Of a DNA stretch of 64,000 nt, positions 7,108-62,557 are shown one piece after another. The position numbers and the translations under genes are program-made. Under the pieces are notes generated by a model, which saw only the letters and a program-made list of their open reading frames with translations, did not search any database and was not told where the DNA came from. Positions within the stretch are counted from its first letter, which is position 1, and the number at the start of each line of letters is the position of its first letter. The stretch is from Escherichia virus TH55, in sequence record MT446421.1. The stretch is one strand, 5' to 3'.

Positions 7108-7652
7108 CAGTCAAGAACATAATAATCATCAATAAATCCAGCATCAACTACCACGAATTTCTGGTCAACTGGAACAAACCATTCAAGCTCGGAATCAATC
7201 ATGTCCATGTATTCTTCACGCCTTAATGTAGCTGCCCGTGCGGAACCAGAAGCTGTATTGAAGAATTCAAGTGGAACATCAAGTGCGATTTTGCGCATCG
7301 CATCATGGTAACAAAAAGCTTTGGTCTGATTCAATCTGACGATAGTCCTAGTCACATATTCCATTGCAGCAAAATCCCTGGCAATACCATAGTCTTCTGT
7401 AAAGGAGGTTATCCGTCCAAATTCAAAAGGTTGCATTGATTCTTTTGCTTCATCTAACAAATCAATCTCTTGCTGGGTTACCCCGCGCCACAAGACTGTA
7501 TCGGGTATAGACAACCTTGACTTGATGATTGAGTTGACATTTGAATGCAAGGTCTTATCAACCTTTGATGTACGGCATTCAAATAATGAAGCTATCTCCA
7601 TTTCACTAAATTTTAACTGGTTGGGTTCGGTATCAGATTTGATGATGTTCAT
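7092..7652 (-). CDS. ADP-ribosyltransferase, ModA/ModB-like
   Basis: R-S-E triad: LWRG, ITSFTED, DSELEWF; tandem with 6433..7047. Confidence 0.65.
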   Translation of the reverse strand: MNIIKSDTEPNQLKFSEMEIASLFECRTSKVDKTLHSNVNSIIKSRLSIPDTVLWRGVTQQEIDLLDEAKESMQPFEFGRITSFTEDYGIARDFAAMEYVTRTIVRLNQTKAFCYHDAMRKIALDVPLEFFNTASGSARAATLRREEYMDMIDSELEWFVPVDQKFVVVDAGFIDDYYVLDCVQEQ

Positions 7653-9839: not shown

Positions 9840-10358
9840 TTAATAACCCCGGTCCTGACGAGCAAAGTTCTCAGCGTTTTTCAGGTAATACAATTTAAAG
9901 ATTTCTTCTGCAGTCAGTCCAAGGCCATGGAACATGTTCAGAACAAAGTGCAGGATATCAATCATCTCAAATTTAATTTCGAGCTGGTCTTCGGGAGACA
10001 ACTCATCAATACGACGATTACGGAATTCAGCATGTTGGACTTTCCATGGTTTCCATACACTAGATGCAGCTTTCTCGCCATTAGACATACCACCGAGAGA
10101 AGTCAGAAGTTCACGGAATTCGTCGTCGACATAATCTTTCTGGTTACGAAGCCATGCAACAACATCACCTGCAGTAGCCAATTCATCTGGATGTGAGTTA
10201 TATTCTGGTTTTTCAGTAGCCAGACGAACTTGCAATGATTTCTGCATATCAAGCATAATCTGCAGCGGGTCAGTACCTTTTGTAATTGCATTGTCATAAG
10301 CTTCTTCAGCTTTATCAACACCGGCAATCAGTTGTGAACATTCATTAAAATGAGCCAT
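9840..10358 (-). CDS. 56: dCTP/dUTP pyrophosphatase gp56 (MazG-like)
   Basis: Trimmed to ATG 10356-10358 (AAGGAAA SD), 172 aa; MazG-like helical motifs; T4 gene 56 position. Confidence 0.7.
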   Translation of the reverse strand: MAHFNECSQLIAGVDKAEEAYDNAITKGTDPLQIMLDMQKSLQVRLATEKPEYNSHPDELATAGDVVAWLRNQKDYVDDEFRELLTSLGGMSNGEKAASSVWKPWKVQHAEFRNRRIDELSPEDQLEIKFEMIDILHFVLNMFHGLGLTAEEIFKLYYLKNAENFARQDRGY

Positions 10359-13196: not shown

Positions 13197-13490
13197 TTAT
13201 TCACCTGTAACCCATTGAACAATTTTGCTATTGTCAAATGAAGCATCGCAATACAGAACATAGTTATACTGCATAACGTCACCAGAAGTCAATTGGTCAG
13301 ATACTTCTTTAACCATATCAGGGCGGTCACGTTTAGTAATATTCATGATGTCAGCGCGAATTTGAGTTTCAACATCAGTTTGGTCCGCAGTCATAGACCA
13401 CTCACAAAGGTTTTTATCAAGTCCAGCAGTAACTGGAGCTGTACCACATGATGCTACGGTAAGAATTGCCGCGATTAATAACTTTTTCAT
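13197..13490 (-). CDS. putative lipoprotein
   Basis: 97 aa; signal peptide with lipobox VASC; GGAG SD. Confidence 0.55.
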   Translation of the reverse strand: MKKLLIAAILTVASCGTAPVTAGLDKNLCEWSMTADQTDVETQIRADIMNITKRDRPDMVKEVSDQLTSGDVMQYNYVLYCDASFDNSKIVQWVTGE

Positions 13491-13991: not shown

Positions 13992-14309
13992 TTAGATTTC
14001 CTCACAGAAGGCCCAGGCGGCGTGATAAACGGTTGCGCCTTTAGTATCATTTAAACAAACCACGTCAACAGGTGCAATCACACGATAAAGACGGGGTTCT
14101 CCTCCATATGAGCGAGCTGCTCTTCCTGCATAGATACGCGCCAAACCAATATCTTCAGTAAAAAACACACGCCCTAAATTTTTCTTACGCCCAACTTCTG
14201 ACAGAACACCAGTTGCATCAGGAGGGCAAAGCATATTTTGGATTCCAGCATTAGAGCTTGAGCCATGATAATAAACTTTGTATTCCGCCTTGCAATCAAT
14301 AGTTTTCAT
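13992..14309 (-). CDS. hypothetical protein with H-G-S motif (possible Arr/Tpt1-like ART fold)
   Basis: 105 aa; YYHGSSSN ... GRVFFTEDIGLARIYAG; functional call speculative. Confidence 0.45.
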   Translation of the reverse strand: MKTIDCKAEYKVYYHGSSSNAGIQNMLCPPDATGVLSEVGRKKNLGRVFFTEDIGLARIYAGRAARSYGGEPRLYRVIAPVDVVCLNDTKGATVYHAAWAFCEEI

Positions 14310-15820: not shown

Positions 15821-16149
15821 CTCTTTTTCATTTTAATCTTATCAATTTCATCTTGTATTTGCATTGTAACACACTTTTCTACATGCACTGCAAGCTCCGC
15901 TTTGCGGTCTTCAGAAGGGGTGCCGAAATCAACTGAAACTTTTCCAGATGGTTCAATTTTAATTCCGGTTACGTACACAATGTGATTGGACCCATCAGGG
16001 AGTGATAACAGAATTTCCTGTCGTACGGTTCCCATGGATTGCCGGATAATCTCCAAACTTTTTTCGTAGTAAGGCACAGAAGGAGCCTTAGCTCCCTCCG
16101 CATCTTTCTCGAAATTATCTAAATCAGATAAATCGATATCATTCATCAA
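15805..16149 (-). CDS. hypothetical protein (T4 gene 40 position)
   Basis: 114-aa ORF between 41 and uvsX; assignment positional only. Confidence 0.45.
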   Translation of the reverse strand: MMNDIDLSDLDNFEKDAEGAKAPSVPYYEKSLEIIRQSMGTVRQEILLSLPDGSNHIVYVTGIKIEPSGKVSVDFGTPSEDRKAELAVHVEKCVTMQIQDEIDKIKMKKRWWKW

Positions 16150-17317
16150 GGTCTTCCATCATATCTAAATCGTTTTCGATATCTGCCGCAGATGGTTTTG
16201 CCTTACCTTCAGGGGCAGAGTATTTTTCAACCTTGGAGGCAATAAGCGCATCAACTTCGGCGTCAACAACAGCATTGCTATCGATTGCACCCAGCTGGTA
16301 ATGTCGTTTGATTGCATCACGGAAAGGTTCGTGCTTGAACAATGGACCCCAGAATTCGGTACAGTTAGTATCTTTTGCACGCCATGATTTTTCTTCGCGG
16401 ACCATTTCACCGGTCTCAACATCAAGATATTCACGGTTATACCAACCAACTTTCGGTTTCACCACAAATCCAATTTCCATTGCCATATCAAGCAGGCCAG
16501 AATACGGGTCAATACCCCCATCGAATTTTACATCAATGAAGAATTTACTTTTCTCTTTGACCATACGAGATTTTTCGGCGTTCAGAACAAATTGGAAACC
16601 TTCAAGTTCTTTACCAGTTTCTTTAATCTGACGTTTACCGATAATGAATACGGTGTCTGCAGAATACATAACACCTGTACCACCGGTCATAACGGTTTTG
16701 CTGTACATCTCAATCGTCTCAATTGTATGGTTAACCGCGACACAAGGGATATCCTTGATACTAAAATATGGGGTAACAATACGGAATAGAGATTTCAGGG
16801 ATTTAGCGCGAGTCATATCGCCAACGACTTTTTCGTTCATCGCATCTTCTGTTTCTTTTTTAGACGCCATGTTACCGATTGAGTCAATAAAGATAATGAC
16901 TTTTTCACCACGCTCAATTGCTTCAAGCTGGTTAACCATATCAACTTTCAATTGTTCAACCGACTGGATTGGTGTGTGAATAACACGTTCCGGGTCAACT
17001 TTCATTGCACGAAGATATGCTTCTGTGATACCAAATTCTGAATCATAGAACAAACAGATTGCATCGGGGTATTTGTTCATATATGCAGAGACCATCGTTA
17101 AACCCATATTGGATTTAAAGTGTTTTGACGGACCAGCAAAAATAGTCAAACCTGACTGCATACCACCATCTAGTGCACCGCTGATTGCAATGTTCAGCAT
17201 CGGGATTTTTGTACGAACTACATCTTTATCATTAAAAAACTTGGACTTAGTAAGAGTCGCAGTCATTTTGGATGTAGAAGCTTTAATCAAACGGGATTTC
17301 AAATCTGCAATAGACAT
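16139..17317 (-). CDS. uvsX: UvsX recombinase (RecA-like)
   Basis: 392 aa; colinear with recalled T4 UvsX (MSIADLKSRLIKASTSK...GPSKHFKSN). Confidence 0.9.
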   Translation of the reverse strand: MSIADLKSRLIKASTSKMTATLTKSKFFNDKDVVRTKIPMLNIAISGALDGGMQSGLTIFAGPSKHFKSNMGLTMVSAYMNKYPDAICLFYDSEFGITEAYLRAMKVDPERVIHTPIQSVEQLKVDMVNQLEAIERGEKVIIFIDSIGNMASKKETEDAMNEKVVGDMTRAKSLKSLFRIVTPYFSIKDIPCVAVNHTIETIEMYSKTVMTGGTGVMYSADTVFIIGKRQIKETGKELEGFQFVLNAEKSRMVKEKSKFFIDVKFDGGIDPYSGLLDMAMEIGFVVKPKVGWYNREYLDVETGEMVREEKSWRAKDTNCTEFWGPLFKHEPFRDAIKRHYQLGAIDSNAVVDAEVDALIASKVEKYSAPEGKAKPSAADIENDLDMMEDLDE

Positions 17318-17402
17318 TCATTTTTTCCATAGGCACCATTATATTTTTCTCACAGGTTTAAGATAGGATAATTATATCACTGTATTTTTAGAGCAATTAA
17401 TG

Positions 17403-17906
17403 TTAGTTAATACCTTGGCGTGCTTTCTCTTTAGCTACACATTTATTAATATAGCTCAGACGGTTTTGAGCAGAACGCTGATACATATCGCGATACTCAT
17501 TAGCTTTTGGAGAACCAGCCTCTGCTGCCTGATAAGCTTCCGCGCGCATGATGTTTATCTGCATATTGATGTATGACATACAGACCTGTGAAATCTGGTT
17601 AACAGTATCCAAGTCATTTTGTCGCTTAGTTTCTGCTTCTAATTTAGCGATTACTTCATCATGCTTCGCAGCTTGCTCGCGTTTGTACTCAATTTCTTGT
17701 TGAGCATATTTCGCGCAGTTATTTCCACATTGATTGTTGTCGCGTTTGTAGATAAGTCCAGTACCACCTTTGAAATCAAAGGAACCATTATGCACCTGAC
17801 GGTCTGCAGCAATTCGCGCTTTACCAATCTCACTGGCATTAACTACATCACCCTGGTAAGCACAACCAGATAACAGTATAACAGCTGCGATAGCTAACTT
17901 TTTCAT
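17403..17906 (-). CDS. putative lipoprotein with coiled-coil
   Basis: Trimmed to ATG 17904-17906 (GAGGA SD); MKKLAIAAVILLSGC lipobox; sits where T4 has beta-gt/42. Confidence 0.55.
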   Translation of the reverse strand: MKKLAIAAVILLSGCAYQGDVVNASEIGKARIAADRQVHNGSFDFKGGTGLIYKRDNNQCGNNCAKYAQQEIEYKREQAAKHDEVIAKLEAETKRQNDLDTVNQISQVCMSYINMQINIMRAEAYQAAEAGSPKANEYRDMYQRSAQNRLSYINKCVAKEKARQGIN

Positions 17907-17916
17907 TGTATTTTCC

Positions 17917-18060
17917 TCAATTAAAACATTCATAGCGGGCTTGGAGCCCCAAAAATACCCAACCCAAAATTAAAGTTGGAATCATATGTGGAGTCATTAT
18001 TGCCCAATAGATTGACATACCAAAAAATGCAATCAGTACAATAATTGTAATCATCTTCAT
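17917..18060 (-). CDS. small membrane protein (47 aa)
   Basis: Not in ORF track; ATGA overlap with stop of 18057..18299; hydrophobic. Confidence 0.35.
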   Translation of the reverse strand: MKMITIIVLIAFFGMSIYWAIMTPHMIPTLILGWVFLGLQARYECFN

Positions 18061-18299
18061 TTGGTTTCCTTGATGATAATTACTTGTGCGTTTGATTTAC
18101 GTTCAGCAACGAGTGCCCAGATAAATGCAATAAACCACCCGACCATTGTCCAACCTAACAGGAGGTTAACAAAGAAGATTCCGCAATTACTTTTGGTTCC
18201 TCGCAGTAGCGCGATAATCCACGGCAGAAAATATGCCAGTGCAGCCAGGAAGAAAGAACCAGCACCAAGAACAACAGTACCTGCAATTAATGTTTCCAT
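18057..18299 (-). CDS. small inner-membrane protein, Imm-like (by position and size)
   Basis: 80 aa, two predicted TM helices, directly downstream of gene 43 as T4 imm. Confidence 0.45.
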   Translation of the reverse strand: METLIAGTVVLGAGSFFLAALAYFLPWIIALLRGTKSNCGIFFVNLLLGWTMVGWFIAFIWALVAERKSNAQVIIIKETK

Positions 18300-18339: not shown

Positions 18340-18368
18340 ATCATACGGCAATCCTTTGCCGTTGTAAA
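18340..18368 (-). promoter_or_regulatory. early-type promoter
   Basis: -35 TTTACA 18363-18368, 17 bp, -10 TATGAT 18340-18345; upstream of imm-like gene. Confidence 0.55.
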
Positions 18369-18371
18369 CAC

Positions 18372-21086
18372 TTAAAAGTCAAACATATCAAAAAGAGTTG
18401 CTTTCTTTTCGTAATCAACCTTTGCTGCTTCAGAGAACCCCGTTAACGGTTTGACAAAAGTCTTCTGGAACAGTGTGTTGTAGTCCATCCACTGCAGAAC
18501 CTGGTCACGAATTTCAATCGGGAGTTCAATCCCTGATGGCCATGCAATCACAGTTTCGCCAAACGGGTTACCAACTTTAAGAGGAAGCACATACACCTTT
18601 TCCCCTTCCATGATTTGTGGAACAGTCTTCAACCCTTTGGTTGCACGCATGTAAGCGAGCACGCCTTTGATATGAGCCGGACACTTAAATCCAGGGAAAC
18701 CACCCTCATTATATTTCTGGATGTTGTTAACCGATGATACACCTGCGATTGTCATGTAGTTAAGCTCATTAAATTCCTTATTGAATTCCTTGAAGTATGT
18801 CTGCAGAGATTCTTCACCTTCTTGCAGCATGCGACGGATACATTCTTTCAGGGCTTTCTGACATGCTTTTGGCGTACTCGACTTTTGAGTTTCCAGACCC
18901 ATGATTTTCAGTTTCGGAACAGCATATCGGGTGCCTTCCATATCGTACACGTTCAGAGCATAACGCTTCTTCGCCGTCCAGAATCCACCAACACCTTTAG
19001 AACCCAACGGAGGACATGCAATCGCTTCACGGTCCATAAACATAAGGTGCTGTTTGTTGTTCATGTATTCAGCCAGCTCACGGAAAGCTTTATCGATTGC
19101 TGGTTCCAGACGGTCTTTCGCAAACTTGTCCATGAAGTCAACCAGGTGGTTTGTATCGCGGAATTTAGATTCGCCACCAACCTTTTTAATCAGGTTATCG
19201 CACTGGATATAAATGGAGTCAGTATCGCCATAGAATACATATGTTTCACCACTTGTACCACAAACACTATCAAAATATTCGTTAACTTTACGCTCAATCC
19301 ACTGCAATGTAAGTTGTCCGAAAGATGTAATCGCGGTTGCATTTCGCAGGTCAAAGTAACGGAACCAGATATTACCCAGAGCGCCATAACAACTGTTGAT
19401 AAGCAGTTTACGGTTAATCTGTGCGGTCATGCCTGCAACTTCTTCCATCTGCGCTTTGTACAACATACCATTCAGAACTGTTTGATTCAGACCATGCAAG
19501 GTTGTTTTCATATTATCATCAAAGTCATAACGATAATCAACTTCAGGCTCGGTTGTACCAGTTCCTGGATTACGCAGGGCTTCCTTAATCAGTTCACCAT
19601 TACGTTGAGCCGCAAGCATATAACCTTTGTGCTCTTTACGCTGATTAAACACCTTGGTGACTTCTGTTGGAATAATACCCGCAACATCTTTAAAATACAT
19701 CATACCGTTTGGAGCACAACTAAATGTATCAGATGGACGGTCAGCAGTTCCTGCGATGTATTCGTACATTGGCGCTGGTGTAAATGACCCGGCAATCGTT
19801 TCTGGACTAATGTTAATCTGTCGGATGATGCTCGGATACAGAGATGTTAAGTCACAGCTCATAACGTATTTGTATGCGTTCGGAATCGGTTCCTTAACAA
19901 ATGCACCTGGGAACGATTGACGAACATGTGATTTGGTTTCCGGAATGACTTTATTTTGAGTCTTCAGGCTGTTAAAGATAATCGCATCCCAAGTTTTGAT
20001 TGGGCTGAATACAGACTGAATCTGCATTTTTGCATAATAACCCATTGACTGGCTAAGGTTAATAAACTGACGCTTACGGTCAATCTGTACAACACGATAA
20101 ACATCGATGATGTTATAAGAAATATACCGTTGGTGATTTGATTCGCGCAGTTTAGAAATCGGGCCATCATACGGGAGTTTACCAACACCCAGCTCAGATT
20201 CCGCAACATAATCCAACGAATAAGACGGTTGGTTTGTGAAGCTGAACTTTTTATACAGGTCCAGATAATCCAGAACAGAGATACCCAGAATCTGAACGAT
20301 TTCTTGTTCTTCACCGAAACCGTTGTTAATGACCTTAACTTTTGTACGACGATGTGGACTCAAACGTTTTGCCGTAGCTTCACCAAATACATTTTTAAGG
20401 CGGTTGTAGATATATGGAATATCAAACTTCTCGATGTTCCAACCAGTTAACATAACCGGAGTTTTCTCGTTCCAGAATACCAAATACTGTTGGAGCATTT
20501 CTTCTTCTGAATCGAAAGCCATATAAACAATTTTTTCCAGGATTTCTTCAGGGACTTCATCACCGCCATCTTCTTGCAGCTTAGCAGCAATATCGATAGA
20601 CCATTGCTCCACAGTGGCGTATGGTGAGCCCAAAAGGTCAAAGACATAGAATTTATCGTCTATCGAATCATAGTGCGTCAGGGCATCAATAGGGTGACGT
20701 GCTTCAGACGGCTCAGGGAACCCATCAGGAGATGTCACCTCGATATCGAAGTTAGCCACACGGATTTTACTTGAATCGTATTTGATTTCGTGCGGGTAAC
20801 GGTCGGACAAGTATGCGAGTTTAAAGTCATCCATACCCATAGCTTCGAGACCCATGTCATTCATTCGCTTCATCCACTGGGATGCATCACGCATGGAATC
20901 GAATTCTTTTTTCACGCAACCTTTATTATAGATGTCTGTATATTTTGCAGCTTGGTCTTCGCGGGCATGCATAAACAGGCATGGGGCATAGGGGATTTCA
21001 CGAACACGTTCATGACCATTCTTGTCAATGTATCGTTCGAGTAGGTTGTCACCGATTTGTTCGATAGTTAAATAAAATTCTTGCAT
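18372..21086 (-). CDS. 43: DNA polymerase gp43 (family B)
   Basis: 904 aa; colinear with recalled T4 gp43 including exonuclease and YGDTDS polymerase motifs. Confidence 0.95.
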   Translation of the reverse strand: MQEFYLTIEQIGDNLLERYIDKNGHERVREIPYAPCLFMHAREDQAAKYTDIYNKGCVKKEFDSMRDASQWMKRMNDMGLEAMGMDDFKLAYLSDRYPHEIKYDSSKIRVANFDIEVTSPDGFPEPSEARHPIDALTHYDSIDDKFYVFDLLGSPYATVEQWSIDIAAKLQEDGGDEVPEEILEKIVYMAFDSEEEMLQQYLVFWNEKTPVMLTGWNIEKFDIPYIYNRLKNVFGEATAKRLSPHRRTKVKVINNGFGEEQEIVQILGISVLDYLDLYKKFSFTNQPSYSLDYVAESELGVGKLPYDGPISKLRESNHQRYISYNIIDVYRVVQIDRKRQFINLSQSMGYYAKMQIQSVFSPIKTWDAIIFNSLKTQNKVIPETKSHVRQSFPGAFVKEPIPNAYKYVMSCDLTSLYPSIIRQINISPETIAGSFTPAPMYEYIAGTADRPSDTFSCAPNGMMYFKDVAGIIPTEVTKVFNQRKEHKGYMLAAQRNGELIKEALRNPGTGTTEPEVDYRYDFDDNMKTTLHGLNQTVLNGMLYKAQMEEVAGMTAQINRKLLINSCYGALGNIWFRYFDLRNATAITSFGQLTLQWIERKVNEYFDSVCGTSGETYVFYGDTDSIYIQCDNLIKKVGGESKFRDTNHLVDFMDKFAKDRLEPAIDKAFRELAEYMNNKQHLMFMDREAIACPPLGSKGVGGFWTAKKRYALNVYDMEGTRYAVPKLKIMGLETQKSSTPKACQKALKECIRRMLQEGEESLQTYFKEFNKEFNELNYMTIAGVSSVNNIQKYNEGGFPGFKCPAHIKGVLAYMRATKGLKTVPQIMEGEKVYVLPLKVGNPFGETVIAWPSGIELPIEIRDQVLQWMDYNTLFQKTFVKPLTGFSEAAKVDYEKKATLFDMFDF

Positions 21087-26197: not shown

Positions 26198-26412
26198 AAA
26201 AGATTCCTTTTAATGTATCTTTTAGACCATTCTATCATATCATCATAATCTAAAAAGCATTCATCAAATTCAGCCATGCAAACCACTCCCTGCGCCGTTT
26301 TTGATGTGATATAAATTATTCCGACATATCTAGAATCTTCTTCGGTATAATCAATATTTGCTACAAATTCATCATCAAGATTAAATTCAAAAGTCTTCAT
26401 CGTAATAAGCAT
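26194..26412 (-). CDS. hypothetical protein
   Basis: 72-aa acidic ORF. Confidence 0.45.
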   Translation of the reverse strand: MLITMKTFEFNLDDEFVANIDYTEEDSRYVGIIYITSKTAQGVVCMAEFDECFLDYDDMIEWSKRYIKRNLL

Positions 26413-32135: not shown

Positions 32136-32415
32136 AGGAAATCACTCCTTGGTAGTTCCAGGTTTTAATAACTTCTTCATCGCTGGCGGTTGCATACGGG
32201 ACATAAACCTGAATAAGGAAACCTGTGTCATCGAAAGAGAAATAAACCGTCGGTTTGATTCCATGAATCTCAGATAGAGCATAGATATCTTTAAGGTCTT
32301 CTTCTTTATCAGCAAAGAATTTCGGGTCCAAGTCACAGTCATGGAAGTACCATTCATCACCGAACTTGTCCCATGCGGTCCAATTAGTAGCTACATATTC
32401 TTCGAAACGTTTCAT
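32116..32415 (-). CDS. hypothetical protein
   Basis: 99-aa ORF. Confidence 0.45.
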   Translation of the reverse strand: MKRFEEYVATNWTAWDKFGDEWYFHDCDLDPKFFADKEEDLKDIYALSEIHGIKPTVYFSFDDTGFLIQVYVPYATASDEEVIKTWNYQGVISCGPKLD

Positions 32416-32651
32416 TCTTTCACCTTCATCATTTTAGCAATAACACTATGGACAGCCTGGATTCGTTTGTCGAACTCAGACCCTTCAAGGCCCTTTTCAG
32501 TACTCAGGGCACCAATCATCACAAACAGCAATCCAAATGGGATAACCAGGATTAAAAGGCACACAATAAACAGGACAAATGTAATATTGGCCAGGATATC
32601 AGAAACAGCATTACGAAATTTATTCATATTTACCCTTAATTGATTAACCAA
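32412..32651 (-). CDS. small membrane protein
   Basis: 79 aa; central hydrophobic helix. Confidence 0.45.
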   Translation of the reverse strand: MVNQLRVNMNKFRNAVSDILANITFVLFIVCLLILVIPFGLLFVMIGALSTEKGLEGSEFDKRIQAVHSVIAKMMKVKE

Positions 32652-32741
32652 GCATTGATAAGCACTAAACTATACTGCGAATAAAATTCTGGACCAAAAT
32701 GAAAAATCATATCATTTATAGTATCCATAATATAATTAAAT

Positions 32742-33212
32742 TTAATCATGTTTCCACACCCCATCGGTATTTGACCAAAGTCGCTGATTATCTGACCCTC
32801 GCCACAGTTTTTTGGTCGGAAGATTTTTCTCATACTTCCCATCAATAATAACATCAACATATTTAAGCATTTCTAGTTGTTTAATATCTTCAAACTTATA
32901 TCCTGTCCACATCCAAATGCTTTTATTTGGATAAAGATTTTTAACAGTTTGAACCACAGAGTGAATAACATCTCGGTTATCAGGATAGAGAGGGTCTCCT
33001 CCAGTTATAGTTAATCCTTCTATATAATCATTATTCAAACATTCAATTAATTGTTCTAGTGTTTCACCAGTGAATGGAACCCCATTTCTAGCATTCCATG
33101 TTGATTTATTATAACACCCTTCACATTTATGCAAACAACCTGTAACGAAAAGAACGACCCTGCATCCAGGGCCATTCACAAAATCACAAGGATAAAATCT
33201 ATCATAATTCAT
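32742..33212 (-). CDS. nrdG: anaerobic ribonucleotide reductase activase NrdG (radical SAM)
   Basis: 156 aa; CxxxCxxC cluster CLHKCEGC. Confidence 0.85.
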   Translation of the reverse strand: MNYDRFYPCDFVNGPGCRVVLFVTGCLHKCEGCYNKSTWNARNGVPFTGETLEQLIECLNNDYIEGLTITGGDPLYPDNRDVIHSVVQTVKNLYPNKSIWMWTGYKFEDIKQLEMLKYVDVIIDGKYEKNLPTKKLWRGSDNQRLWSNTDGVWKHD

Positions 33213-53970: not shown

Positions 53971-54554
53971 TTACGGCATTCCTCAATAAAGGAGTTCAAT
54001 GTATTTTTCTTAGTGATATCGTCATATACCTTTTTAACTTTAGAAATACGAAAAGGTACTTCAATAACCATAGTCCATAAAAATGATGCAATAAGTCCAG
54101 CAAGAGCAGTAGAAAAGCACGCACCCATTACAGCTACGGGTGCTTCATTTTTGCCTGTCAAGAAAAACCACAGGAATGGTAAAAATAAGATTCCAGCCCA
54201 GGCATAAAACCTGGAACAAATTAACTTATCAAATTCATCACTCCAGGTACGAAATCCATATTTCTTGCTATAAGAAATTAATGGGTCGGGTGTCTGTTCT
54301 TTGAGTGGTTCTGGTTGATACCCATTAATGATATATCCCATTTTATATTCCTTAATTAAAAGCTCTTTCACATGACGATTGCATCGCGACCAATCAACAT
54401 TTTCCACCTTGATTCCTTCATCACCATCATCAAGGTTCGCCCAATATTTTTTGGTAATCATAAATTCATCTCTTGATACAATTATACCTGCATTTTCCGA
54501 CCGACGGATGAAGTTTACATCAACACCCATACAACCCGGCTCATAAAGGGCCAT
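53967..54554 (-). CDS. membrane protein, FI-x-EC-K/R tail family
   Basis: 195 aa; TM helices; C-terminus ...NSFIEECRK. Confidence 0.5.
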   Translation of the reverse strand: MALYEPGCMGVDVNFIRRSENAGIIVSRDEFMITKKYWANLDDGDEGIKVENVDWSRCNRHVKELLIKEYKMGYIINGYQPEPLKEQTPDPLISYSKKYGFRTWSDEFDKLICSRFYAWAGILFLPFLWFFLTGKNEAPVAVMGACFSTALAGLIASFLWTMVIEVPFRISKVKKVYDDITKKNTLNSFIEECRK

Positions 54555-55240
54555 TACCAGCCCTCCATAGGGAATTCCAGATATACTTGAGCATTAACGC
54601 GGATTTCATTTGTAATCTTTTTAACACGGTCGGTATTACGAGACACACGACCAAACCAGCGCCAACCGTTACTTACTGCGCGAGAACCTGTATGCCATGT
54701 CTGCCAATCAAACTGGAGCAACGTGCGGTCAGGAGCATCCCACTTGGCTAATTCATTGGACTCAATTTTTTCCAGAACTTCTTTATGCCACTGACGATAG
54801 ATAAGTTCGCCTTCAGGAATCTGACTAAATTGTGCAGTTCCGGTTGCAAAATAAGTAGGACACACATCAGCGTTAACAAGACCAAGAATATGTTCAGAAT
54901 GGTAACGAGGATTATCATAATCAGGTTGCCCTGCAGTAATAAAGTGTTGACCAACCGGAATATCCGGGCGTGGTACATCGTCATGGTGATAACCTGGGAT
55001 AGCAGGATACCAACCAGGCATCAGCATATGAACCCGAGAATCAAATACAACCTGGTCGGTGTTCCAATCATCCGGCAGACTCATAATAAAGCTACGAGTA
55101 ATAGGACCGCCATTGTCAAAAGCGAAAGCCAATGAGCTGTTGAAGAACATAGTTTCGTTTTTGATTTTATCATTAGAAATTTTACCAGCGAAACTGCCTA
55201 CTGCATGAGCTTGAGAATTAAAAGTTTTTGGACCGTTCAT
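54554..55240 (-). CDS. hypothetical protein
   Basis: 228-aa ORF; GAGGA SD; His/Asp-rich, no confident family call. Confidence 0.5.
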   Translation of the reverse strand: MNGPKTFNSQAHAVGSFAGKISNDKIKNETMFFNSSLAFAFDNGGPITRSFIMSLPDDWNTDQVVFDSRVHMLMPGWYPAIPGYHHDDVPRPDIPVGQHFITAGQPDYDNPRYHSEHILGLVNADVCPTYFATGTAQFSQIPEGELIYRQWHKEVLEKIESNELAKWDAPDRTLLQFDWQTWHTGSRAVSNGWRWFGRVSRNTDRVKKITNEIRVNAQVYLEFPMEGW

Positions 55241-55267
55241 AATATTTTCCTCATTGATTGTGGGACC

Positions 55268-55296
55268 ATTGTGTCATAGTCCCACTTGGATGTACA
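55268..55296 (-). promoter_or_regulatory. early-type promoter (weak -10)
   Basis: -35 TGTACA 55291-55296, 17 bp, -10 CACAAT 55268-55273. Confidence 0.35.
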
Positions 55297-55299
55297 CAC

Positions 55300-56280
55300 T
55301 TATTTTTCGAAAGGACGAATTAAATGTTGGTTAGCCTTGAAACGTTTAACATAGTCTTCGTGACCCAGGGTGTTGTACATATTAACCACTTCCTGGTAAT
55401 GTTCCCAGGCATACTCGCGGAACCATCCAGAAGTAATGGAGGTGCAGACTTTTTCCAGCGCAATATGGAAGCTCACGGATGGAGAGATATTGAACTCATT
55501 GGGAACCTGCGAACGCTCCAGAGCGAGTACACATGCTTCTTCATAAACCCCTGCCAGTTTAATAATCTCAGGGAGTGCTTCAAATTTTTCACGCGAGGTC
55601 ATAACTTCTGAATCATCTTTCATATAGAACTTATATGCAGGCTTATCAGCAAGCGCCACGGCCTCGTGGATGGAGTCATGGTCAAGGGTATAGATTGTAT
55701 CATTAAAGAAAGTTTTCTTGCCCACGTCTAGTTTAGGGTGACTATATGACAATGTTTCTGCCTGGCGCTGCAGCATGATTTTATGCAGTTCGTCATTAAG
55801 AACAACCCCCTTATTGCGAAGGTAATTAATATGACTCATGGTCTTCAGGAAGAATGGATTGTTCTTCAGGTAACGATGAGACAATTTAATTGCCAGACAA
55901 ATATCAGGAGTCGCCCAGTAAAAACCAGATAGACGGTCTTTCTGAATATTTGCCTTCGCATATTTGAGTAAACGATAACTGGAGGTAAAATCTTCCTCTT
56001 GTAGCTCATCAGTCAGCTCACGAACACTTGTCAATGCGCGGACGATGTACGCTTCAAAATAGGTTTCTTTACCATTGTGCATACATTTAAAAGCTTGAAC
56101 ATCTGGGTTATCCACATGCACATGTTGTCCCATCATCTGGGTTTTAAAGCTATTCCAGGAGCCCTGGTCAGCGATAAAGTCCCAATCAGAGTTTTCAATT
56201 TTCTGACTTTCAATCAGACCAGCGTTATGTAATGCACGAGAACCAATAACTAACATCATAATATTTTCCTCAAATAACAC
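55300..56280 (-). CDS. hypothetical protein
   Basis: 326-aa ORF. Confidence 0.55.
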   Translation of the reverse strand: MLFEENIMMLVIGSRALHNAGLIESQKIENSDWDFIADQGSWNSFKTQMMGQHVHVDNPDVQAFKCMHNGKETYFEAYIVRALTSVRELTDELQEEDFTSSYRLLKYAKANIQKDRLSGFYWATPDICLAIKLSHRYLKNNPFFLKTMSHINYLRNKGVVLNDELHKIMLQRQAETLSYSHPKLDVGKKTFFNDTIYTLDHDSIHEAVALADKPAYKFYMKDDSEVMTSREKFEALPEIIKLAGVYEEACVLALERSQVPNEFNISPSVSFHIALEKVCTSITSGWFREYAWEHYQEVVNMYNTLGHEDYVKRFKANQHLIRPFEK

Positions 56281-60031: not shown

Positions 60032-60337
60032 TTAGATTTTGTTTTCCTGCACACCATAGTAAAGTTCATCAGACACAATATCCAGGATGCGGCGAACATA
60101 TTCATCATGGTATTGGCAGTCAAAATCAAATGCAACAGTAGTTTCCGCTTCACGAGTGAATTTAACTTGCACATTCAGGTGATTAACAACGTTAGTTAAT
60201 TTATCAGTAAAGAACTCTTTTGCTACCGCCTGTTGGACTTGTACTTTGAACTTGGTGTTGCGAATCATATTTTCAGCAGATGCGAAATTACCAGTTTTAT
60301 CAAAGTCAACAAGCGCCAGGTTGATGATGAATTTCAT
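60032..60337 (-). CDS. hypothetical protein
   Basis: 101-aa ORF; own promoter motif. Confidence 0.5.
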   Translation of the reverse strand: MKFIINLALVDFDKTGNFASAENMIRNTKFKVQVQQAVAKEFFTDKLTNVVNHLNVQVKFTREAETTVAFDFDCQYHDEYVRRILDIVSDELYYGVQENKI

Positions 60338-60378
60338 TTTATTCTCCAGTGTTTTATTTGGTAACTCAGTATGGAATC

Positions 60379-60407
60379 ATTATGCCTTAAAGCAGGGGGC
60401 TTGTATA
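60379..60407 (-). promoter_or_regulatory. early-type promoter
   Basis: -35 TATACA 60402-60407, 17 bp, -10 CATAAT 60379-60384; leader TACTGAGTTACCAAA. Confidence 0.5.
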
Positions 60408-60423
60408 CCCCCCCCTTTTTGAA

Positions 60424-60867
60424 TTAAATTTCAAATTCTTTGCGGAAGTTGGAAGCATAAGACTGAACTGATGCTTTGTTGAACCCAAACTCACGCACAA
60501 TCATATCAATAACAGCTCTGCGAGCAGCACCATTAGACATATTAACAGTTTTGAACATATCATAGCATAAATCTTTGTTGCTCATACCGGAGCGTTTAGG
60601 TGCCTTACGTTCAGCTTTTGGTTCAGCTTTAGGAGTAGGTTTAACTTCTGGTTTAACCTGTCCATCATTCAGACCTTTAAAAATTTTACCTGCCAGAGTT
60701 GCCAGTTTAGCAGCTTCGCCACGAGTGATACCAAATACTGCCGGGTTAAATGAAATACCTTCAGCTGTCAGACGTTTGAAGAACATACGGGCTGCGGATT
60801 GTGCTTCAGCTTCAGAAGAGTTGTTTAATGCCAGTTTAACGTACTTAACCAGTTTTGAAGTTTTCAT
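60424..60867 (-). CDS. hypothetical protein, paralog of 60951..61376
   Basis: Trimmed to MKTSKLVKYV start; shared C-terminal GAARRAxIDxxV...VQSYASNFRK. Confidence 0.5.
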   Translation of the reverse strand: MKTSKLVKYVKLALNNSSEAEAQSAARMFFKRLTAEGISFNPAVFGITRGEAAKLATLAGKIFKGLNDGQVKPEVKPTPKAEPKAERKAPKRSGMSNKDLCYDMFKTVNMSNGAARRAVIDMIVREFGFNKASVQSYASNFRKEFEI

Positions 60868-60909
60868 TTTATTATCCCGTTTGTTTATTTGGTAACTCAG
60901 TATGGGATA

Positions 60910-60938
60910 ATTATACATTATCCCACCTGGAAGTAAAA
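60910..60938 (-). promoter_or_regulatory. early-type promoter
   Basis: -35 TTTTAC 60933-60938, 17 bp, -10 TATAAT 60910-60915. Confidence 0.5.
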
Positions 60939-60950
60939 CACTTTTCTCAA

Positions 60951-61376
60951 TTATTTTTGAGCTTTGCGGAAGTTGGAAGCATATGACTGAACAACAGTCT
61001 TTTTGATATCATGGGTGTTAACCAGAACATCAATCAGAGCGCGACGAGCTGCACCATCTGCCATATCAATTTCTGCAAATGCCTGGAAGCAAATGTCACG
61101 AGCATTACCAGATTTTGACTGGATTTTTTCTTCTTTAACTTCTTCAATTGGGAATTCAATCATTTCAGCTTGGATTAATTCAATGATAGATTCTTTTGAC
61201 TGTTTGGTGTTTACCTTCAGTTCAGAATTAAGGGACTTGGCGATGGCAACAATCTGGGTTGAAGTCAGATGAATAAGTGCATCTTCACGAATGCAGATTT
61301 CACATACTTCATCGGCAACCATTTTGTTGGTGATGCGGGTAACAGAGAATGCAGAGGTCAGGGTCAGGAAGTTCAT
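60951..61376 (-). CDS. hypothetical protein, paralog of 60424..60867
   Basis: Trimmed to ATG 61374-61376 (GGAGA SD); shared C-terminal domain. Confidence 0.5.
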   Translation of the reverse strand: MNFLTLTSAFSVTRITNKMVADEVCEICIREDALIHLTSTQIVAIAKSLNSELKVNTKQSKESIIELIQAEMIEFPIEEVKEEKIQSKSGNARDICFQAFAEIDMADGAARRALIDVLVNTHDIKKTVVQSYASNFRKAQK

Positions 61377-61427
61377 TTTATTTCTCCAAAGTTTTGTTTG
61401 ATTCAGTGTGTAACTCAGTATGGAATC

Positions 61428-61456
61428 ATTATGCATCCAGTCAATTCGGATGTACA
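61428..61456 (-). promoter_or_regulatory. early-type promoter
   Basis: -35 TGTACA 61451-61456, 17 bp, -10 CATAAT 61428-61433. Confidence 0.55.
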
Positions 61457-61500
61457 CTACTTTTTGAAGAAAATTTCAAATTTATTCGGGGTATAAAAAA

Positions 61501-61515
61501 GCCCGCAATGCGGGC
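61501..61515 (-). terminator. rho-independent terminator
   Basis: GCCCG-loop-CGGGC hairpin followed by TTTTTT. Confidence 0.65.
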
Positions 61516-61517
61516 TG

Positions 61518-62072
61518 TTAGTTCTTATAAAAGCGGAACGGATTTATATGAAAGGCGAGCATAGCCTTAGGGATTGGTCGGGACAGAAGGCTCTTGAGCT
61601 TCCAACCACAATAAACGCGCAGATAAAAGGTGATTCCACCGACCTTGAGATAAGGAACAGAAGCAAAAACACCCCAGGCATTATCCGTCCACATCCAGAG
61701 CCATCCGTGATGAGCTTTATCCGGGGAACCGGATTCAACATCAGGATTGCCTTTATAATGGAATTCTGAATTGCAATCACGACCGAGCTTGTGGTAAGCA
61801 AAATTGTATGCTTTGTTTCGCCAGAGCCAAGCTACTCGTTGGAAGTAAACACCTAACGGCCATTTTCGGATTTTTGACCAACGTTTGACATGACCCCGGT
61901 CACCATCAATCGGATTATCATAAGTCATCATCCAATCAAACCCGAACGGAAGTTTACCAGTCTTTTTATTATAGAATGGAACTACAAATGGAGCCAGGAT
62001 AACGGCCAGAATCATGGAGATAAAATCCAGTGGAACTAACAGAATCCAACTCAAATATTTTAACAGTTTCAT
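61518..62072 (-). CDS. membrane-anchored protein
   Basis: Trimmed to ATG 62070-62072; N-terminal TM helix; Trp/His-rich. Confidence 0.5.
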   Translation of the reverse strand: MKLLKYLSWILLVPLDFISMILAVILAPFVVPFYNKKTGKLPFGFDWMMTYDNPIDGDRGHVKRWSKIRKWPLGVYFQRVAWLWRNKAYNFAYHKLGRDCNSEFHYKGNPDVESGSPDKAHHGWLWMWTDNAWGVFASVPYLKVGGITFYLRVYCGWKLKSLLSRPIPKAMLAFHINPFRFYKN

Positions 62073-62101
62073 ACGTTTCTCTTTAGTTGATTTATAAAAA
62101 A

Positions 62102-62123
62102 GCCCCAACCTTTCGGAAGGGGC
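62102..62123 (-). terminator. rho-independent terminator
   Basis: GCCCC...GGGGC interrupted hairpin followed by TTTTTT. Confidence 0.6.
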
Positions 62124-62161
62124 TATACCTTGTCGGGGTTCCACCTGCAAGGCAAGTGTTC

Positions 62162-62557
62162 TTATCCGCGAGCGAATGCCATTGCAGCGCGTTCGTTAGC
62201 ACGGTCGGTGATGTTCAAGAATTTATCACGAGCGATTTCGATTGGAGCACCAACCCAGTCAGCAGCACCATTACCTGGAGACTGTTTAGGGCGAACCATA
62301 TAAGTTGAAACTTTGGAACCGGCTAGTTTGGCACCAGGTGCCGCGGCATTTTTAACGTCTTTAGCTTTGATGCCAAACCCAGTTACGATACCCCAAGAAA
62401 CGCCATTAACTGGTTTCTTGAACATAACACGGTCACCAATTGAAACACCGGCTTTTTCTGGAGCCACTAAAGAAAATTTACCAGCTTCAGTCAGTACGGA
62501 TTCGGTGATGGTATTGCGATTTAAAAATTCTGCATATGTAAGCATTTTGTTTTCCAT
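62162..62557 (-). CDS. hypothetical protein, possible internal/virion protein
   Basis: 131 aa; N-terminus MLTYAEFLN loosely resembles IP targeting sequence; TATAAATA late motif upstream. Confidence 0.45.
   Translation of the reverse strand: MENKMLTYAEFLNRNTITESVLTEAGKFSLVAPEKAGVSIGDRVMFKKPVNGVSWGIVTGFGIKAKDVKNAAAPGAKLAGSKVSTYMVRPKQSPGNGAADWVGAPIEIARDKFLNITDRANERAAMAFARG

What the first reader, a model, noticed from the sequence alone, without database searches (positions are those of the whole stretch)
17403..18299. Envelope-protein module where T4 has gene 42 and beta-gt
Between uvsX and gene 43 the window has an Imm-like 80-aa two-helix protein, a 47-aa hydrophobic peptide and a lipoprotein, linked by ATGA overlaps. 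No dCMP hydroxymethylase or glucosyltransferase is present here, although gene 56 is retained. This suggests the phage lacks glucosyl-hmC or encodes it elsewhere, and that the locus is a superinfection-exclusion module.
Basis: partly seen in the sequence, partly recalled or inferred. Interest (0 to 1): 0.5.

Follow-up and report, generated by a model that had tools for sequence, protein, structure and literature searches.

The report
Conserved T4 imm operon; gene 42 lost
The three small envelope genes are the ordinary superinfection-immunity (imm) gene cluster that T4 itself carries at this spot; what is unusual is that this phage genus has lost the neighbouring cytosine-modification genes, and its only thymidylate-synthase gene carries the one substitution known to turn that enzyme into a dCMP methylase.

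Summary
The window is a Gaprivervirus (T4-like), 100% identical over all 64 kb to Escherichia phage UPEC07. The three minus-strand ORFs exist as described: Imm (18057-18299), a 47-aa membrane peptide (17917-18060) and a lipoprotein (17403-17906; the 17933 start is probably wrong). All three have T4 counterparts in the same interval: imm, an unannotated 48-aa ORF directly after imm ('42.1'), and imm.1. So the module is ancestral and did not replace gene 42 or beta-gt. T4 reads 43-imm.1-imm-42.1-42-bgt-segA-uvsX. The window reads 43-imm-42.1-lipoprotein-uvsX. The sister genus (JS98) has the same trio followed by five genes (a gp42-like enzyme plus sugar genes). These are cleanly absent here (about 4.2 kb). 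No gp42, alpha-gt, beta-gt or JS98-cluster homologue exists anywhere in the UPEC07 genome. This genus trait is already published (2021, 2025). VR7, a member of the genus, has 'modified, unglycosylated cytosines' by restriction analysis. New lead, outside the window: the genome's single TS-family gene ('td') has Asp where T4 Td and bacterial TS have Asn (E. coli N177). That change converts TS into a dCMP methylase. It is fixed in all Gaprivervirus-type Td clusters examined and absent from 114 of 116 other T4-like Td. Probable consequence: 5-methylcytosine DNA.

The parts
18340..18368 (-). Sigma-70-type promoter-like site (TTTACA-17-TATGAT) just downstream of the gene 43 stop and upstream of imm. 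It is a candidate early promoter of the imm operon.
   Evidence: Consensus scan, 10 of 12 matches. The number of sites in the region is not above the shuffled expectation, so this is only suggestive.
18057..18299 (-). imm: an 80-aa inner-membrane superinfection-immunity protein with two TM helices.
   Evidence: PF14373, 64.2 bits (cut-off 27.9). phrog_1039 'immunity to superinfection', E 1.8e-30. 52% identity to T4 Imm over 83 aa. Same position next to gene 43 as in T4, JS98 and VR7.
17917..18060 (-). 47-aa hydrophobic peptide (VR7 'gp42.1', phrog_3610), translationally coupled to imm by an ATGA overlap.
   Evidence: phrog_3610, E 9.6e-27, full length. 50% identical (E 9e-13) to an unannotated 48-aa ORF at T4 26230-26370 that overlaps the T4 imm stop in the same way. 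tblastn hits in 502 phage records across Tequatro-, Mosig-, Dhaka-, Gapriver- and Winklervirus.
17403..17906 (-). 167-aa lipoprotein precursor of the Imm.1 family (phrog_1754). Lipobox LLSG|C15, Ala at +2, four further Cys. UPEC07 annotates an upstream start at 17933.
   Evidence: phrog_1754, E 6.7e-46. T4 Imm.1 matches the same PHROG at E 6e-43, and JS98 orf43 at 9e-52. hhalign against the T4 Imm.1 subfamily aligns only residues 1-30 (94.7%). No Pfam DUF5481 hit. 124 phage records. The AF2 model has mean pLDDT 70.8: a disordered tether, a beta-hairpin and a helical bundle, with no Foldseek PDB match.
17318..17402 (-). Intergenic junction with a putative MotA-type middle promoter for uvsX (TTGCTCTA at 17389-17396, TATAAT at 17371-17376). 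This is the point where the sister genus carries five extra genes.
   Evidence: 92% identical to the JS98 sequence immediately downstream of orf38 and upstream of uvsX. The promoter reading is my inference from the sequence and the T4 MotA-box consensus recalled from memory.
9843..10358 (-). Gene 56 (dCTPase/dUTPase), retained.
   Evidence: 68% identity to T4 gp56 over 172 aa, E 4e-78.
13200..13490 (-). sp (Spackle), the second T4 superinfection-exclusion gene, retained elsewhere in the window.
   Evidence: 66% identity to T4 Sp over 97 aa, E 1e-42.

Best explanation
The 897-bp interval is the conserved imm operon of T-even-type phages. It is not a new module that displaced gene 42.

Shown:
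- It encodes Imm, the small membrane peptide 42.1 coupled to imm by an ATGA overlap, and an Imm.1-family lipoprotein.
- T4 and the sister genus Dhakavirus carry the same three genes in the same interval next to gene 43.
- The G+C content equals that of the flanks.

Inferred mechanism: the operon is transcribed early from a promoter just after gene 43. Imm inserts in the inner membrane and, as shown genetically for T4 Imm, prevents DNA of superinfecting T-even phages from crossing into the cytoplasm. The 47-aa peptide and the probably outer-membrane lipoprotein are co-expressed envelope partners. A role for them in exclusion is plausible but untested.

What distinguishes this phage is a clean loss of the adjacent cytosine-modification cluster. 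In T4 that cluster is 42 and beta-gt. In JS98 it is a gp42-like enzyme plus four sugar-activation or transfer genes, about 4.2 kb. The loss lies exactly between the lipoprotein stop and the uvsX promoter, and no copy exists elsewhere in the genome. This trait of the genus Gaprivervirus is already published.

Inferred, about 0.55: the loss is tolerated because the phage's only thymidylate-synthase homologue (Td, outside the window) carries Asp at the Asn177-equivalent position and now methylates dCMP. Under this reading the phage replaces C with 5-methylcytosine while keeping dCTPase, Alc, DenA and DenB.
For: Identity of the window: 100% to UPEC07 over 64 kb; genus Gaprivervirus.

Gene identities.

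Synteny:
- T4 is 43-imm.1-imm-(42.1)-42-bgt-segA-uvsX.
- JS98 is 43-imm-orf44-orf43-orf42..orf38-uvsX, with orf39 a gp42 homologue (E 1.8e-8).
- VR7 is 43-imm-42.1-ORF049c-uvsX.
- The junction upstream of uvsX is 92% identical to JS98.
- G+C is 0.405 in both the module and uvsX.

Absence of the modification genes:
- No T4 gp42, alpha-gt, beta-gt or dam homologue, and no JS98 orf38-42 homologue, in the whole UPEC07 genome by tblastn, phmmer and profile search. Positive controls were found.
- Literature: Gaprivervirus lacks the hmC enzyme but keeps dCTPase, denA, denB, alc and ndd (PMC8056088, PMC12115623).
- VR7 has modified, unglycosylated cytosines and is BREX-sensitive (PMC6326788 and its Suppl. 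Fig. S4).

Td:
- D187 aligns with N187 of the solved T4 TS (1TIS) and with the Asn of bacterial TS.
- The motif FLGLPFDIGSYG is in all 4 Gaprivervirus-type clusters, against FLGLPFNIASYA in 114 of 116 other T4-like Td, including Dhakavirus.
- It is the only TS-superfamily ORF in the genome.
- N177D switches TS from dUMP to dCMP, giving 5-methyl-dCMP (PMC8670742, citing Hardy & Nalivaika 1992 and Liu & Santi 1992).
Against: - No functional data exist for the 47-aa peptide or for any Imm.1-family protein.
- hhalign links the lipoprotein to T4 Imm.1 only over the first 30 residues, and it misses Pfam DUF5481. Orthology with imm.1 therefore rests mainly on PHROG clustering and position.
- Gene order differs from T4: the lipoprotein is downstream of imm rather than upstream.
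- The promoter call is a consensus match only.
- The Td inference rests on one residue plus neighbouring clade-specific changes. Td is outside the window. His147, which differs in many natural cytosine-modifying TS homologues, is retained.
- The source of dTMP would then need explaining. Candidates are Cd deamination of 5-methyl-dCMP, residual dUMP activity, host ThyA or salvage.
- The VR7 restriction data say 'modified cytosines' without naming the base.
Confidence: 0.8

Rival explanations
1. One reading: a novel three-gene superinfection-exclusion cassette was inserted in place of gene 42 and beta-gt.
For: Three envelope ORFs occupy the uvsX-43 interval, and gene 42 and beta-gt are not there.
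Against: T4 has homologues of all three genes in the same interval alongside 42 and beta-gt. JS98 has the identical trio plus the modification cluster. G+C equals the flanks. The peptide and lipoprotein occur in 502 and 124 phage records.
Confidence: 0.05
2. The phage has ordinary unmodified cytosine. Gene 56 is kept only as a dUTPase, and Alc, DenB and DenA are relics or have been retargeted.
For: No known cytosine-modifying enzyme of the gp42 type and no glycosyltransferase is encoded.
Against: VR7 DNA behaves as cytosine-modified in restriction analysis (PMC6326788 Suppl. Fig. S4). gp56 (68%), DenA (74%), Alc (52%) and DenB (46%) are all conserved as intact ORFs. PMC12115623 argues this gene set is incompatible with dC-DNA. 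Td carries the dCMP-specifying Asp.
Confidence: 0.08
3. Cytosine is modified, but by an unrecognised enzyme unrelated to the TS family and encoded elsewhere. The Td Asp is incidental, or gives a dual-specificity TS.
For: Two papers propose an unknown enzyme. Many ORFs of unknown function remain. gp1 dNMP kinase is only 47% identical to JS98 gp1, against a 78% median.
Against: A Pfam scan of 48 ORFs that lack T4 homologues or have no assigned function found no methyltransferase, glycosyltransferase, TS or other base-modifying family. The few ORFs in the window part specific to Gaprivervirus are small non-enzyme-like proteins. The Asp substitution is fixed in the clade, lies with other active-site-proximal changes (F149L, A179G, A182G), and is the experimentally proven specificity switch.
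Confidence: 0.25
4. Td D187 acts as a dCMP hydroxymethylase, so the DNA carries unglycosylated 5-hmC.
For: T4 gp42 and JS98 orf39 also have Asp at the aligned position. VR7 DNA is unglycosylated and BREX-sensitive like the hmC mutant T4-147.
Against: The protein is a 68%-identical Td orthologue that keeps His147 and the TS core rather than gp42-type residues (Thr after the catalytic Cys). The engineered N-to-D change gives a methylase, not a hydroxymethylase. The BREX paper's supplement labels T4-147 'hydroxymethylated' but VR7 only 'modified', after a beta-glucosyltransferase test. frd (DHFR) is retained next to td.
Confidence: 0.1

Closest known systems
Bacteriophage T4 imm region (43 - imm.1 - imm - unannotated '42.1' ORF - 42)
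   Same: The same three gene families, next to gene 43 on the same strand. The same ATGA coupling of imm to the small peptide. Imm is 52% identical and the peptide 50% identical. The lipoprotein is in the same PHROG as Imm.1.
   Different: The lipoprotein lies downstream of imm rather than upstream. It is 167 aa rather than 125 aa and is recognisably similar only in the N-terminal 30 residues by hhalign. Gene 42, beta-gt and segA are absent.
Dhakavirus JS98 locus (43 - imm - orf44 - orf43 - orf42..orf38 - uvsX)
   Same: Identical order of imm, 42.1 and lipoprotein. The lipoprotein is about 51% identical. The uvsX upstream region is 92% identical.
   Different: JS98 has five extra genes between the lipoprotein and uvsX: a gp42-like enzyme (orf39), a product annotated phosphoheptose isomerase (orf41), a product annotated thymidylate kinase (orf40), a 557-aa protein (orf42) and orf38, both annotated hypothetical. 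None has a homologue in this phage.
T5 Llp and phi80/N15 Cor outer-membrane lipoprotein exclusion proteins
   Same: A small phage-encoded lipoprotein expressed early. This would be a precedent for a lipoprotein blocking superinfection at the outer membrane.
   Different: The only similarity is the signal peptide (phrog_1119 Cor, E 0.015, residues 10-26). There is no fold match. No receptor-blocking evidence exists.
T4 Spackle (Sp, gp61.3)
   Same: The second T4 exclusion factor, also periplasmic. It is retained in this window at 13200-13490 (66% identity), so the T4-type two-component exclusion system (Imm plus Sp) is complete (PMC7677548).
   Different: A different locus and an unrelated protein. 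It acts on gp5 lysozyme, not on DNA transfer across the inner membrane.
Engineered TS N177D (E. coli) and N229D (L. casei), and natural Asp177 TS homologues of cytosine-modified phages (for example the XP12-type dCMP methylase)
   Same: The phage's only TS homologue has Asp at the equivalent position (D187), inside an otherwise canonical TS of 286 aa that is 68% identical to T4 Td.
   Different: No biochemical test has been done. The gene lies outside the window. It arose by conversion of the resident td orthologue in a T-even lineage rather than as a separate gp42-like gene. His147 is retained.

Membership tests
Imm superinfection immunity protein (Pfam PF14373; T4 Imm) | Sequence match to the family model above the curated threshold | tested here: met
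   64.2 bits against a cut-off of 27.9, E 1e-17. phrog_1039, E 1.8e-30. 52% identity to T4 Imm.
Imm superinfection immunity protein (Pfam PF14373; T4 Imm) | A protein of about 80 aa with two hydrophobic transmembrane helices | tested here: met
   80 aa. Hydropathy segments at about 3-33 and 39-66.
Imm superinfection immunity protein (Pfam PF14373; T4 Imm) | Position adjacent to DNA polymerase gene 43 | tested here: met
   72 nt downstream of the gene 43 stop, as in T4, JS98 and VR7.
Imm superinfection immunity protein (Pfam PF14373; T4 Imm) | Blocks DNA entry of superinfecting T-even phage | not testable with these tools
   Needs plasmid expression with EOP and DNA-injection assays.
gp42.1 small membrane peptide (phrog_3610) | Full-length profile match and a T4 counterpart directly after imm with an ATGA overlap | tested here: met
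   E 9.6e-27 over residues 1-47. T4 26230-26370 is 50% identical, E 9e-13, with the same overlap.
Imm.1 lipoprotein family (phrog_1754; Pfam DUF5481) | Match to phrog_1754, shared with T4 Imm.1 | tested here: met
   Window E 6.7e-46; T4 Imm.1 E 6.1e-43; JS98 orf43 E 9e-52.
Imm.1 lipoprotein family (phrog_1754; Pfam DUF5481) | Match to Pfam DUF5481 (PF17578) | tested here: not met
   No hit at E <= 1 for the window protein, although T4 Imm.1 scores 239 bits. The window protein belongs to a divergent subfamily.
Imm.1 lipoprotein family (phrog_1754; Pfam DUF5481) | Independent profile-profile homology over the mature domain | tested here: inconclusive
   hhalign gives 94.7% probability but aligns only residues 1-30, that is the signal peptide plus the QGxVVNxSxxGK motif.
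Imm.1 lipoprotein family (phrog_1754; Pfam DUF5481) | Lipoprotein signal peptide with lipobox Cys | tested here: met
   MKKLAIAAVILLSG|C15. Cys15 is invariant in the six-sequence alignment A1 and at least 90% conserved across the 17-sequence family alignment A2.
Llp/Cor-type outer-membrane lipoprotein exclusion proteins | Sequence or fold similarity beyond the signal peptide | tested here: not met
   phrog_1119, E 0.015, restricted to residues 10-26. Foldseek PDB found no match at E <= 0.001.
T-even glucosyl-hmC pathway (gp42 dCMP hydroxymethylase, alpha-gt, beta-gt) | Presence of gp42, alpha-gt and beta-gt homologues in the locus, window or genome | tested here: not met
   tblastn, phmmer and a gp42 profile against the window and the whole UPEC07 genome gave no significant hit. 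The same profile finds T4 gp42 and JS98 orf39.
TS-type dCMP methyltransferase (Asp177 class) | Thymidylate-synthase fold and family membership | tested here: met
   E 1e-127 to the solved T4 TS 1TIS. PF00303 on the cluster representatives.
TS-type dCMP methyltransferase (Asp177 class) | Asp instead of Asn at E. coli position 177 | tested here: met
   D187 against N187 of 1TIS. Fixed in P0017-P0020. 114 of 116 other T4-like Td have Asn.
TS-type dCMP methyltransferase (Asp177 class) | dCMP methylation activity, and 5-methyl-dC in virion DNA | not testable with these tools
   The only indirect evidence is VR7 'modified, unglycosylated cytosines' (PMC6326788).

The most novel reading that the evidence does not exclude
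Gapriverviruses are T-even-type phages that abandoned the hmC and glycosylation pathway. The clean deletion next to the imm operon is its footprint. They instead converted their resident thymidylate synthase into a dCMP methylase by an N-to-D change at the specificity residue, with accompanying F149L, A179G and A182G changes. Their DNA would then carry 5-methylcytosine in place of cytosine while still relying on dCTPase, Alc, DenA and DenB to discriminate against host dC-DNA. This would answer the question, left open in two papers, of which non-canonical base and enzyme this genus uses.
Probability: 0.55. Interest if true: 0.65.

Novelty: already known. Interest (0 to 1): 0.4.

Why it matters
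The module itself is routine. It is the T4 imm operon, already annotated as imm and 42.1 in VR7. It does show that T4's RefSeq annotation omits a conserved 48-aa gene coupled to imm. It also shows that Imm always travels with a small membrane peptide and usually with a lipoprotein, which is worth testing in exclusion assays.

The missing gene 42 matters more. Gapriverviruses are being considered for phage therapy, and their DNA chemistry determines three things: transduction risk, sensitivity to restriction, BREX and McrBC-type defences, and how their DNA can be handled in the laboratory. If Td D187 is a dCMP methylase, it would be a natural example of the classic N177D specificity switch. It would also show a one-step evolutionary route from hmC to 5mC DNA within the T-even phages.

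Tried and rejected
- Structure of the lipoprotein: the AF2 model (pLDDT 70.8) followed by Foldseek against the PDB gave only generic helical hits with E > 1, so no functional clue.
- The Pfam hits of the lipoprotein (FerB, DUF553) and the Cor/Rz-like PHROG hits are sub-threshold or cover only the signal peptide. I rejected them.
- Search for an alternative modification enzyme: 48 ORFs lacking T4 homologues or of unknown function were scanned against Pfam. Only DUFs and T4-type families came up (FRD2, Gp30.7, Gp30.8, y05I, RlaP, PinA, DUF7275/7277, DUF7338). No methyltransferase, glycosyltransferase or TS was found.
- The 319-aa DUF7277+DUF7275 protein and its 228-aa neighbour (window 54554-56259) looked like candidates, but they are 85-98% identical to JS98 proteins, so they are not genus-specific.
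- gp1 dNMP kinase is unusually divergent (47%), but T4 and JS98 gp1 are equally divergent from each other (51%), so this is not diagnostic.
- The terminator-like hairpin inside the 47-aa ORF (17958-17980) is at the chance expectation and I ignored it.
- Literature searches for imm.1 function and for 5mC in SP18 or Gaprivervirus found nothing. One search call failed on a term that was too short.
- I did not fetch the rest of the JS98 genome or T4 96-120 kb. Genus-specific genes outside the window part were therefore screened only against T4 and Pfam.
Full report
**What the window is.** The 2.3-kb stretch around the finding is 100% identical to Escherichia phages TH22 and UPEC07, and 95-98% identical to SP18, VR7, VR20 and other members of the genus Gaprivervirus (Straboviridae, Tevenvirinae). 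After fetching the UPEC07 genome, blastn showed the whole 64-kb window to be 100% identical to it. The window corresponds to UPEC07 106539-170004 plus 1-625, reverse complemented. I therefore used UPEC07 as the complete genome of this phage.

**Observation check.** On the minus strand, gene 43 (18372-21086) is followed by three ORFs and then uvsX (16139-17317):
- an 80-aa ORF at 18057-18299;
- a 47-aa ORF at 17917-18060;
- an ORF ending at 17403.

The 80-aa protein matches Pfam Imm_superinfect well above threshold (64.2 against 27.9 bits). It is 52% identical to T4 Imm and has two long hydrophobic segments. The 47-aa protein is almost entirely hydrophobic. The third protein has a classical lipoprotein signal, MKKLAIAAVILLSG|C.

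One detail is wrong. Only the imm/47-aa junction is an ATGA overlap. The ATG at 17906 follows a GAGGAAA Shine-Dalgarno sequence at the right distance, starts directly with the signal peptide, and is the start chosen in VR7. Gene 56 is present at 9843-10358 (68% identical to T4), and neither gene 42 nor beta-gt is in the interval. The G+C content of the module (0.405) equals that of uvsX.

**What the three genes are.** All three belong to families shared with T4.
- The 47-aa peptide is phrog_3610 (E 9.6e-27). VR7 annotators called it gp42.1. The T4 RefSeq record lists nothing between imm and 42. However, tblastn finds a 48-aa ORF at T4 26230-26370, 50% identical (E 9e-13), whose ATG overlaps the imm stop codon as ATGA, exactly as here. 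The peptide is detectable in 502 phage records across at least five genera.
- The lipoprotein is phrog_1754 (E 6.7e-46). T4 Imm.1, the lipoprotein gene between 43 and imm, matches the same PHROG over its full length (E 6e-43), as do JS98 orf43 and a Winklervirus protein.
- The link to Imm.1 is weaker by other tests. The window protein does not hit Pfam DUF5481, which is built on T4 Imm.1. hhalign between the two subfamilies aligns only the first 30 residues, covering the signal peptide plus a conserved QGxVVNxSxxGK motif. I therefore call it an Imm.1-family lipoprotein of a divergent subfamily.
- This subfamily is found in 124 phage records: Gapriver-, Dhaka-, Winklervirus and T4-like phages of Enterobacter, Kosakonia, Edwardsiella and others.
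- An AF2 model (mean pLDDT 70.8) shows a disordered tether, a beta-hairpin carrying the conserved GGTGL..NNQCGNNC motif, and a confident helical bundle. Foldseek against the PDB gives nothing below E = 1. Ala at +2 after the lipid Cys suggests outer-membrane sorting, which is my inference from the E. coli Lol rule.

**Synteny.**
- T4 reads 43 - imm.1 - imm - (42.1) - 42 - beta-gt - segA - uvsX.
- The window and VR7 read 43 - imm - 42.1 - lipoprotein - uvsX.
- JS98 (the sister genus Dhakavirus) reads 43 - imm - orf44 (42.1) - orf43 (lipoprotein) - orf42 - orf41 - orf40 - orf39 - orf38 - uvsX.
- In JS98, orf39 is a divergent gp42 homologue (E 1.8e-8 to T4 gp42). Its neighbours are a 557-aa protein (orf42, annotated hypothetical), a product annotated phosphoheptose isomerase (orf41), a product annotated thymidylate kinase (orf40) and orf38 (hypothetical). 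All are annotated as similar to RB69 ORFs.

The window's 85-bp spacer upstream of uvsX is 92% identical to the JS98 sequence immediately after orf38. The two genera therefore differ by a clean indel of about 4.2 kb, placed exactly between the lipoprotein stop and the uvsX promoter. The envelope trio is ancestral. It did not replace gene 42 and beta-gt; the modification cluster next to it is simply absent.

**Is the modification pathway elsewhere?** No homologue of the known pathway is. I searched the whole UPEC07 genome with T4 gp42, alpha-gt, beta-gt and Dam and with the five JS98 cluster proteins, using tblastn, phmmer with filters off, and a gp42 profile. None gave a significant hit. The same profile recovers T4 gp42 and JS98 orf39 at E < 1e-130.

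This is a published genus trait. PMC8056088 (2021) and PMC12115623 (2025) both note that Gaprivervirus lacks the hmC enzyme yet keeps dCTPase, DenA, DenB, Ndd and Alc. Both suggest an unknown non-canonical base. In the BREX study PMC6326788, restriction analysis showed that VR7 DNA 'has modified cytosines' but is not glycosylated. VR7 is fully blocked by BREX, unlike the glycosylated VR5 and T4.

**A lead on how the phage copes (outside the window).** The genome has a single TS-superfamily ORF, annotated td (UPEC07 32227-33087). It is 68% identical to T4 Td. At the position where solved T4 TS (1TIS) and bacterial TS have the invariant Asn of the LPFNIASY motif (E. coli Asn177), it has Asp: LPFDIGSY.
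- PMC8670742 summarises the classic work of Hardy & Nalivaika 1992, Liu & Santi 1992 and Graves 1992. This residue dictates pyrimidine specificity, and Asn-to-Asp switches a canonical TS from dUMP to dCMP, producing 5-methyl-dCMP. Natural TS homologues on cytosine-modified phage contigs mostly carry Asp.
- Among the best 120 Td clusters from a 5.8-billion-protein search, all four Gaprivervirus-type clusters (86-99% identical, including SP18 and Yersinia phage P8) have FLGLPFDIGSYG. Of the other 116, 114 have FLGLPFNIASYA, including the Dhakaviruses Bp7, IME540 and KIT01. One metagenomic relative (P0076) has FLGLPFDIASYA.
- Other clade-fixed changes lie beside the catalytic Cys and the specificity residue: F149L, A179G and A182G in E. 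coli numbering.
- The 32 phage records with a Td at least 80% identical equal in number the 32 records that share this imm locus.

My inference is that Gaprivervirus Td is a dCMP methylase and that the DNA carries 5-methylcytosine. That would fit the VR7 data: cytosine-modified, unglycosylated, and described differently from the hydroxymethylated T4-147 control. It would also explain why dCTPase, Alc, DenA and DenB remain useful. dTMP could come from Cd deaminating 5-methyl-dCMP (Cd is 86.5% identical to T4 Cd), from residual dUMP activity, from host ThyA or from salvage. These routes are speculation. I found no paper in the searchable library that makes this connection. It remains unproven, and the gene is not in the window.

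**Mechanism of the module.** Shown: gene identities, coupling and conservation. Established for T4 and inferred here: Imm is made early and, together with Spackle, excludes superinfecting T-even phages (PMC7677548). That Imm acts at the inner membrane to block DNA transfer is my recollection of the T4 literature; the T4 RefSeq note says DNA of superinfecting phage is left in the periplasm. A Spackle orthologue is present at 13200-13490. A sigma-70-like site (TTTACA-17-TATGAT, 18340-18368) sits just upstream of imm. The role of the 47-aa peptide and the lipoprotein is unknown in any phage. Their tight, widely conserved linkage to imm makes an accessory role in envelope-level exclusion the most economical guess, at perhaps 0.4. 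Independent functions are equally compatible with the data.

**Verdict.** The feature at 17403-18299 is real but ordinary: it is the T4-family imm operon, already annotated in close relatives. The noted absence of gene 42 and the glucosyltransferases is correct, applies genome-wide, and is already published. The most interesting outcome is the testable Td D187 hypothesis for the unexplained cytosine modification of this genus.

Noticed in passing
Outside the window: UPEC07 MW250787.1 32227-33087 (locus L005): The phage's only TS-family gene ('td') has Asp (LPFDIGSY) at the Asn177-equivalent specificity residue. The change is fixed in all Gaprivervirus-type Td clusters and absent from 114 of 116 other T4-like Td. 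It predicts a dCMP methylase and 5-methylcytosine DNA.
   Followed up: yes
T4 NC_000866 26230-26370 (locus L002, about 7231-7371, minus strand): An unannotated 48-aa ORF (MKSKIIAALLLILMIIISIYYSVTVPLMIPTIILGWSLLLLQVKYECIN) lies directly after T4 imm with an ATGA overlap. It is homologous to the window's 47-aa peptide. The T4 RefSeq record lists no gene here.
   Followed up: yes
window 17371-17396 (minus strand): A MotA-box-like TTGCTCTA lies 12 nt upstream of a TATAAT, ahead of uvsX. The stretch is 92% conserved with JS98. It is a probable middle promoter and marks the right-hand edge of the 4.2-kb indel.
   Followed up: partly
VR7 HM563683 (locus L010 3505-3745): VR7 and several other Gapriverviruses carry an extra stretch of about 160 bp with a 42-aa hydrophobic ORF (MIGMLLISLWLLSAFGIGFMYWWDKRQTRKIVERAINRGFNR) between the lipoprotein and uvsX. 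The window lacks it.
   Followed up: partly
window 13200-13490 (minus strand): A Spackle (sp) orthologue, 66% identical to T4 Sp. The known T4 exclusion pair Imm plus Sp is therefore complete in this phage.
   Followed up: partly
window 54554-56259 (minus strand): An adjacent pair of genes absent from T4 but present in JS98 and annotated there as similar to RB69 ORFs. One is a 319-aa protein with DUF7277+DUF7275 whose N-terminus (IGSRAL...DWDF) looks nucleotidyltransferase-like. The other is a 228-aa protein with no Pfam hit.
   Followed up: partly
window 60424-61436 (minus strand): Two neighbouring ORFs of about 160 aa (both beginning M-x-N-x-x-ILSY) have no homologue in T4 or in the fetched part of JS98. 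Together with the 131-aa and 101-aa ORFs nearby (60032-62557), they are the only ORFs of at least 90 aa specific to Gaprivervirus in the region where both the T4 and JS98 counterparts had been fetched.
   Followed up: no
window 13992-14309 (minus strand): A 105-aa ORF annotated in UPEC07 as 'clamp loader subunit DNA polymerase' has no T4 homologue and no Pfam hit. JS98 has an ORF of the same size at the equivalent position (orf34, annotated as RB69 orf040c-like). Many UPEC07 product names in this window look wrong, for example eight consecutive CDSs annotated 'thioredoxin', seven of which are nrdC.x-type ORFs rather than nrdC itself.
   Followed up: partly
Outside the window: UPEC07 103239-103916 (gene 1, dNMP kinase): gp1 is only 47% identical to both T4 and JS98 gp1, against a median of 78% identity to JS98 for other shared proteins. 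T4 and JS98 gp1 are also only 51% identical to each other, so each modification type may have its own kinase specificity.
   Followed up: partly
Erwinia phage Vettismorki PQ464591 (locus L011 4995-6180): In this Winklervirus the Imm.1-family lipoprotein directly follows gene 43. The 42.1 peptide is separated from it by a gene annotated arabinose-5-phosphate isomerase, and no imm is annotated between them. The trio's internal order is therefore variable across genera.
   Followed up: no
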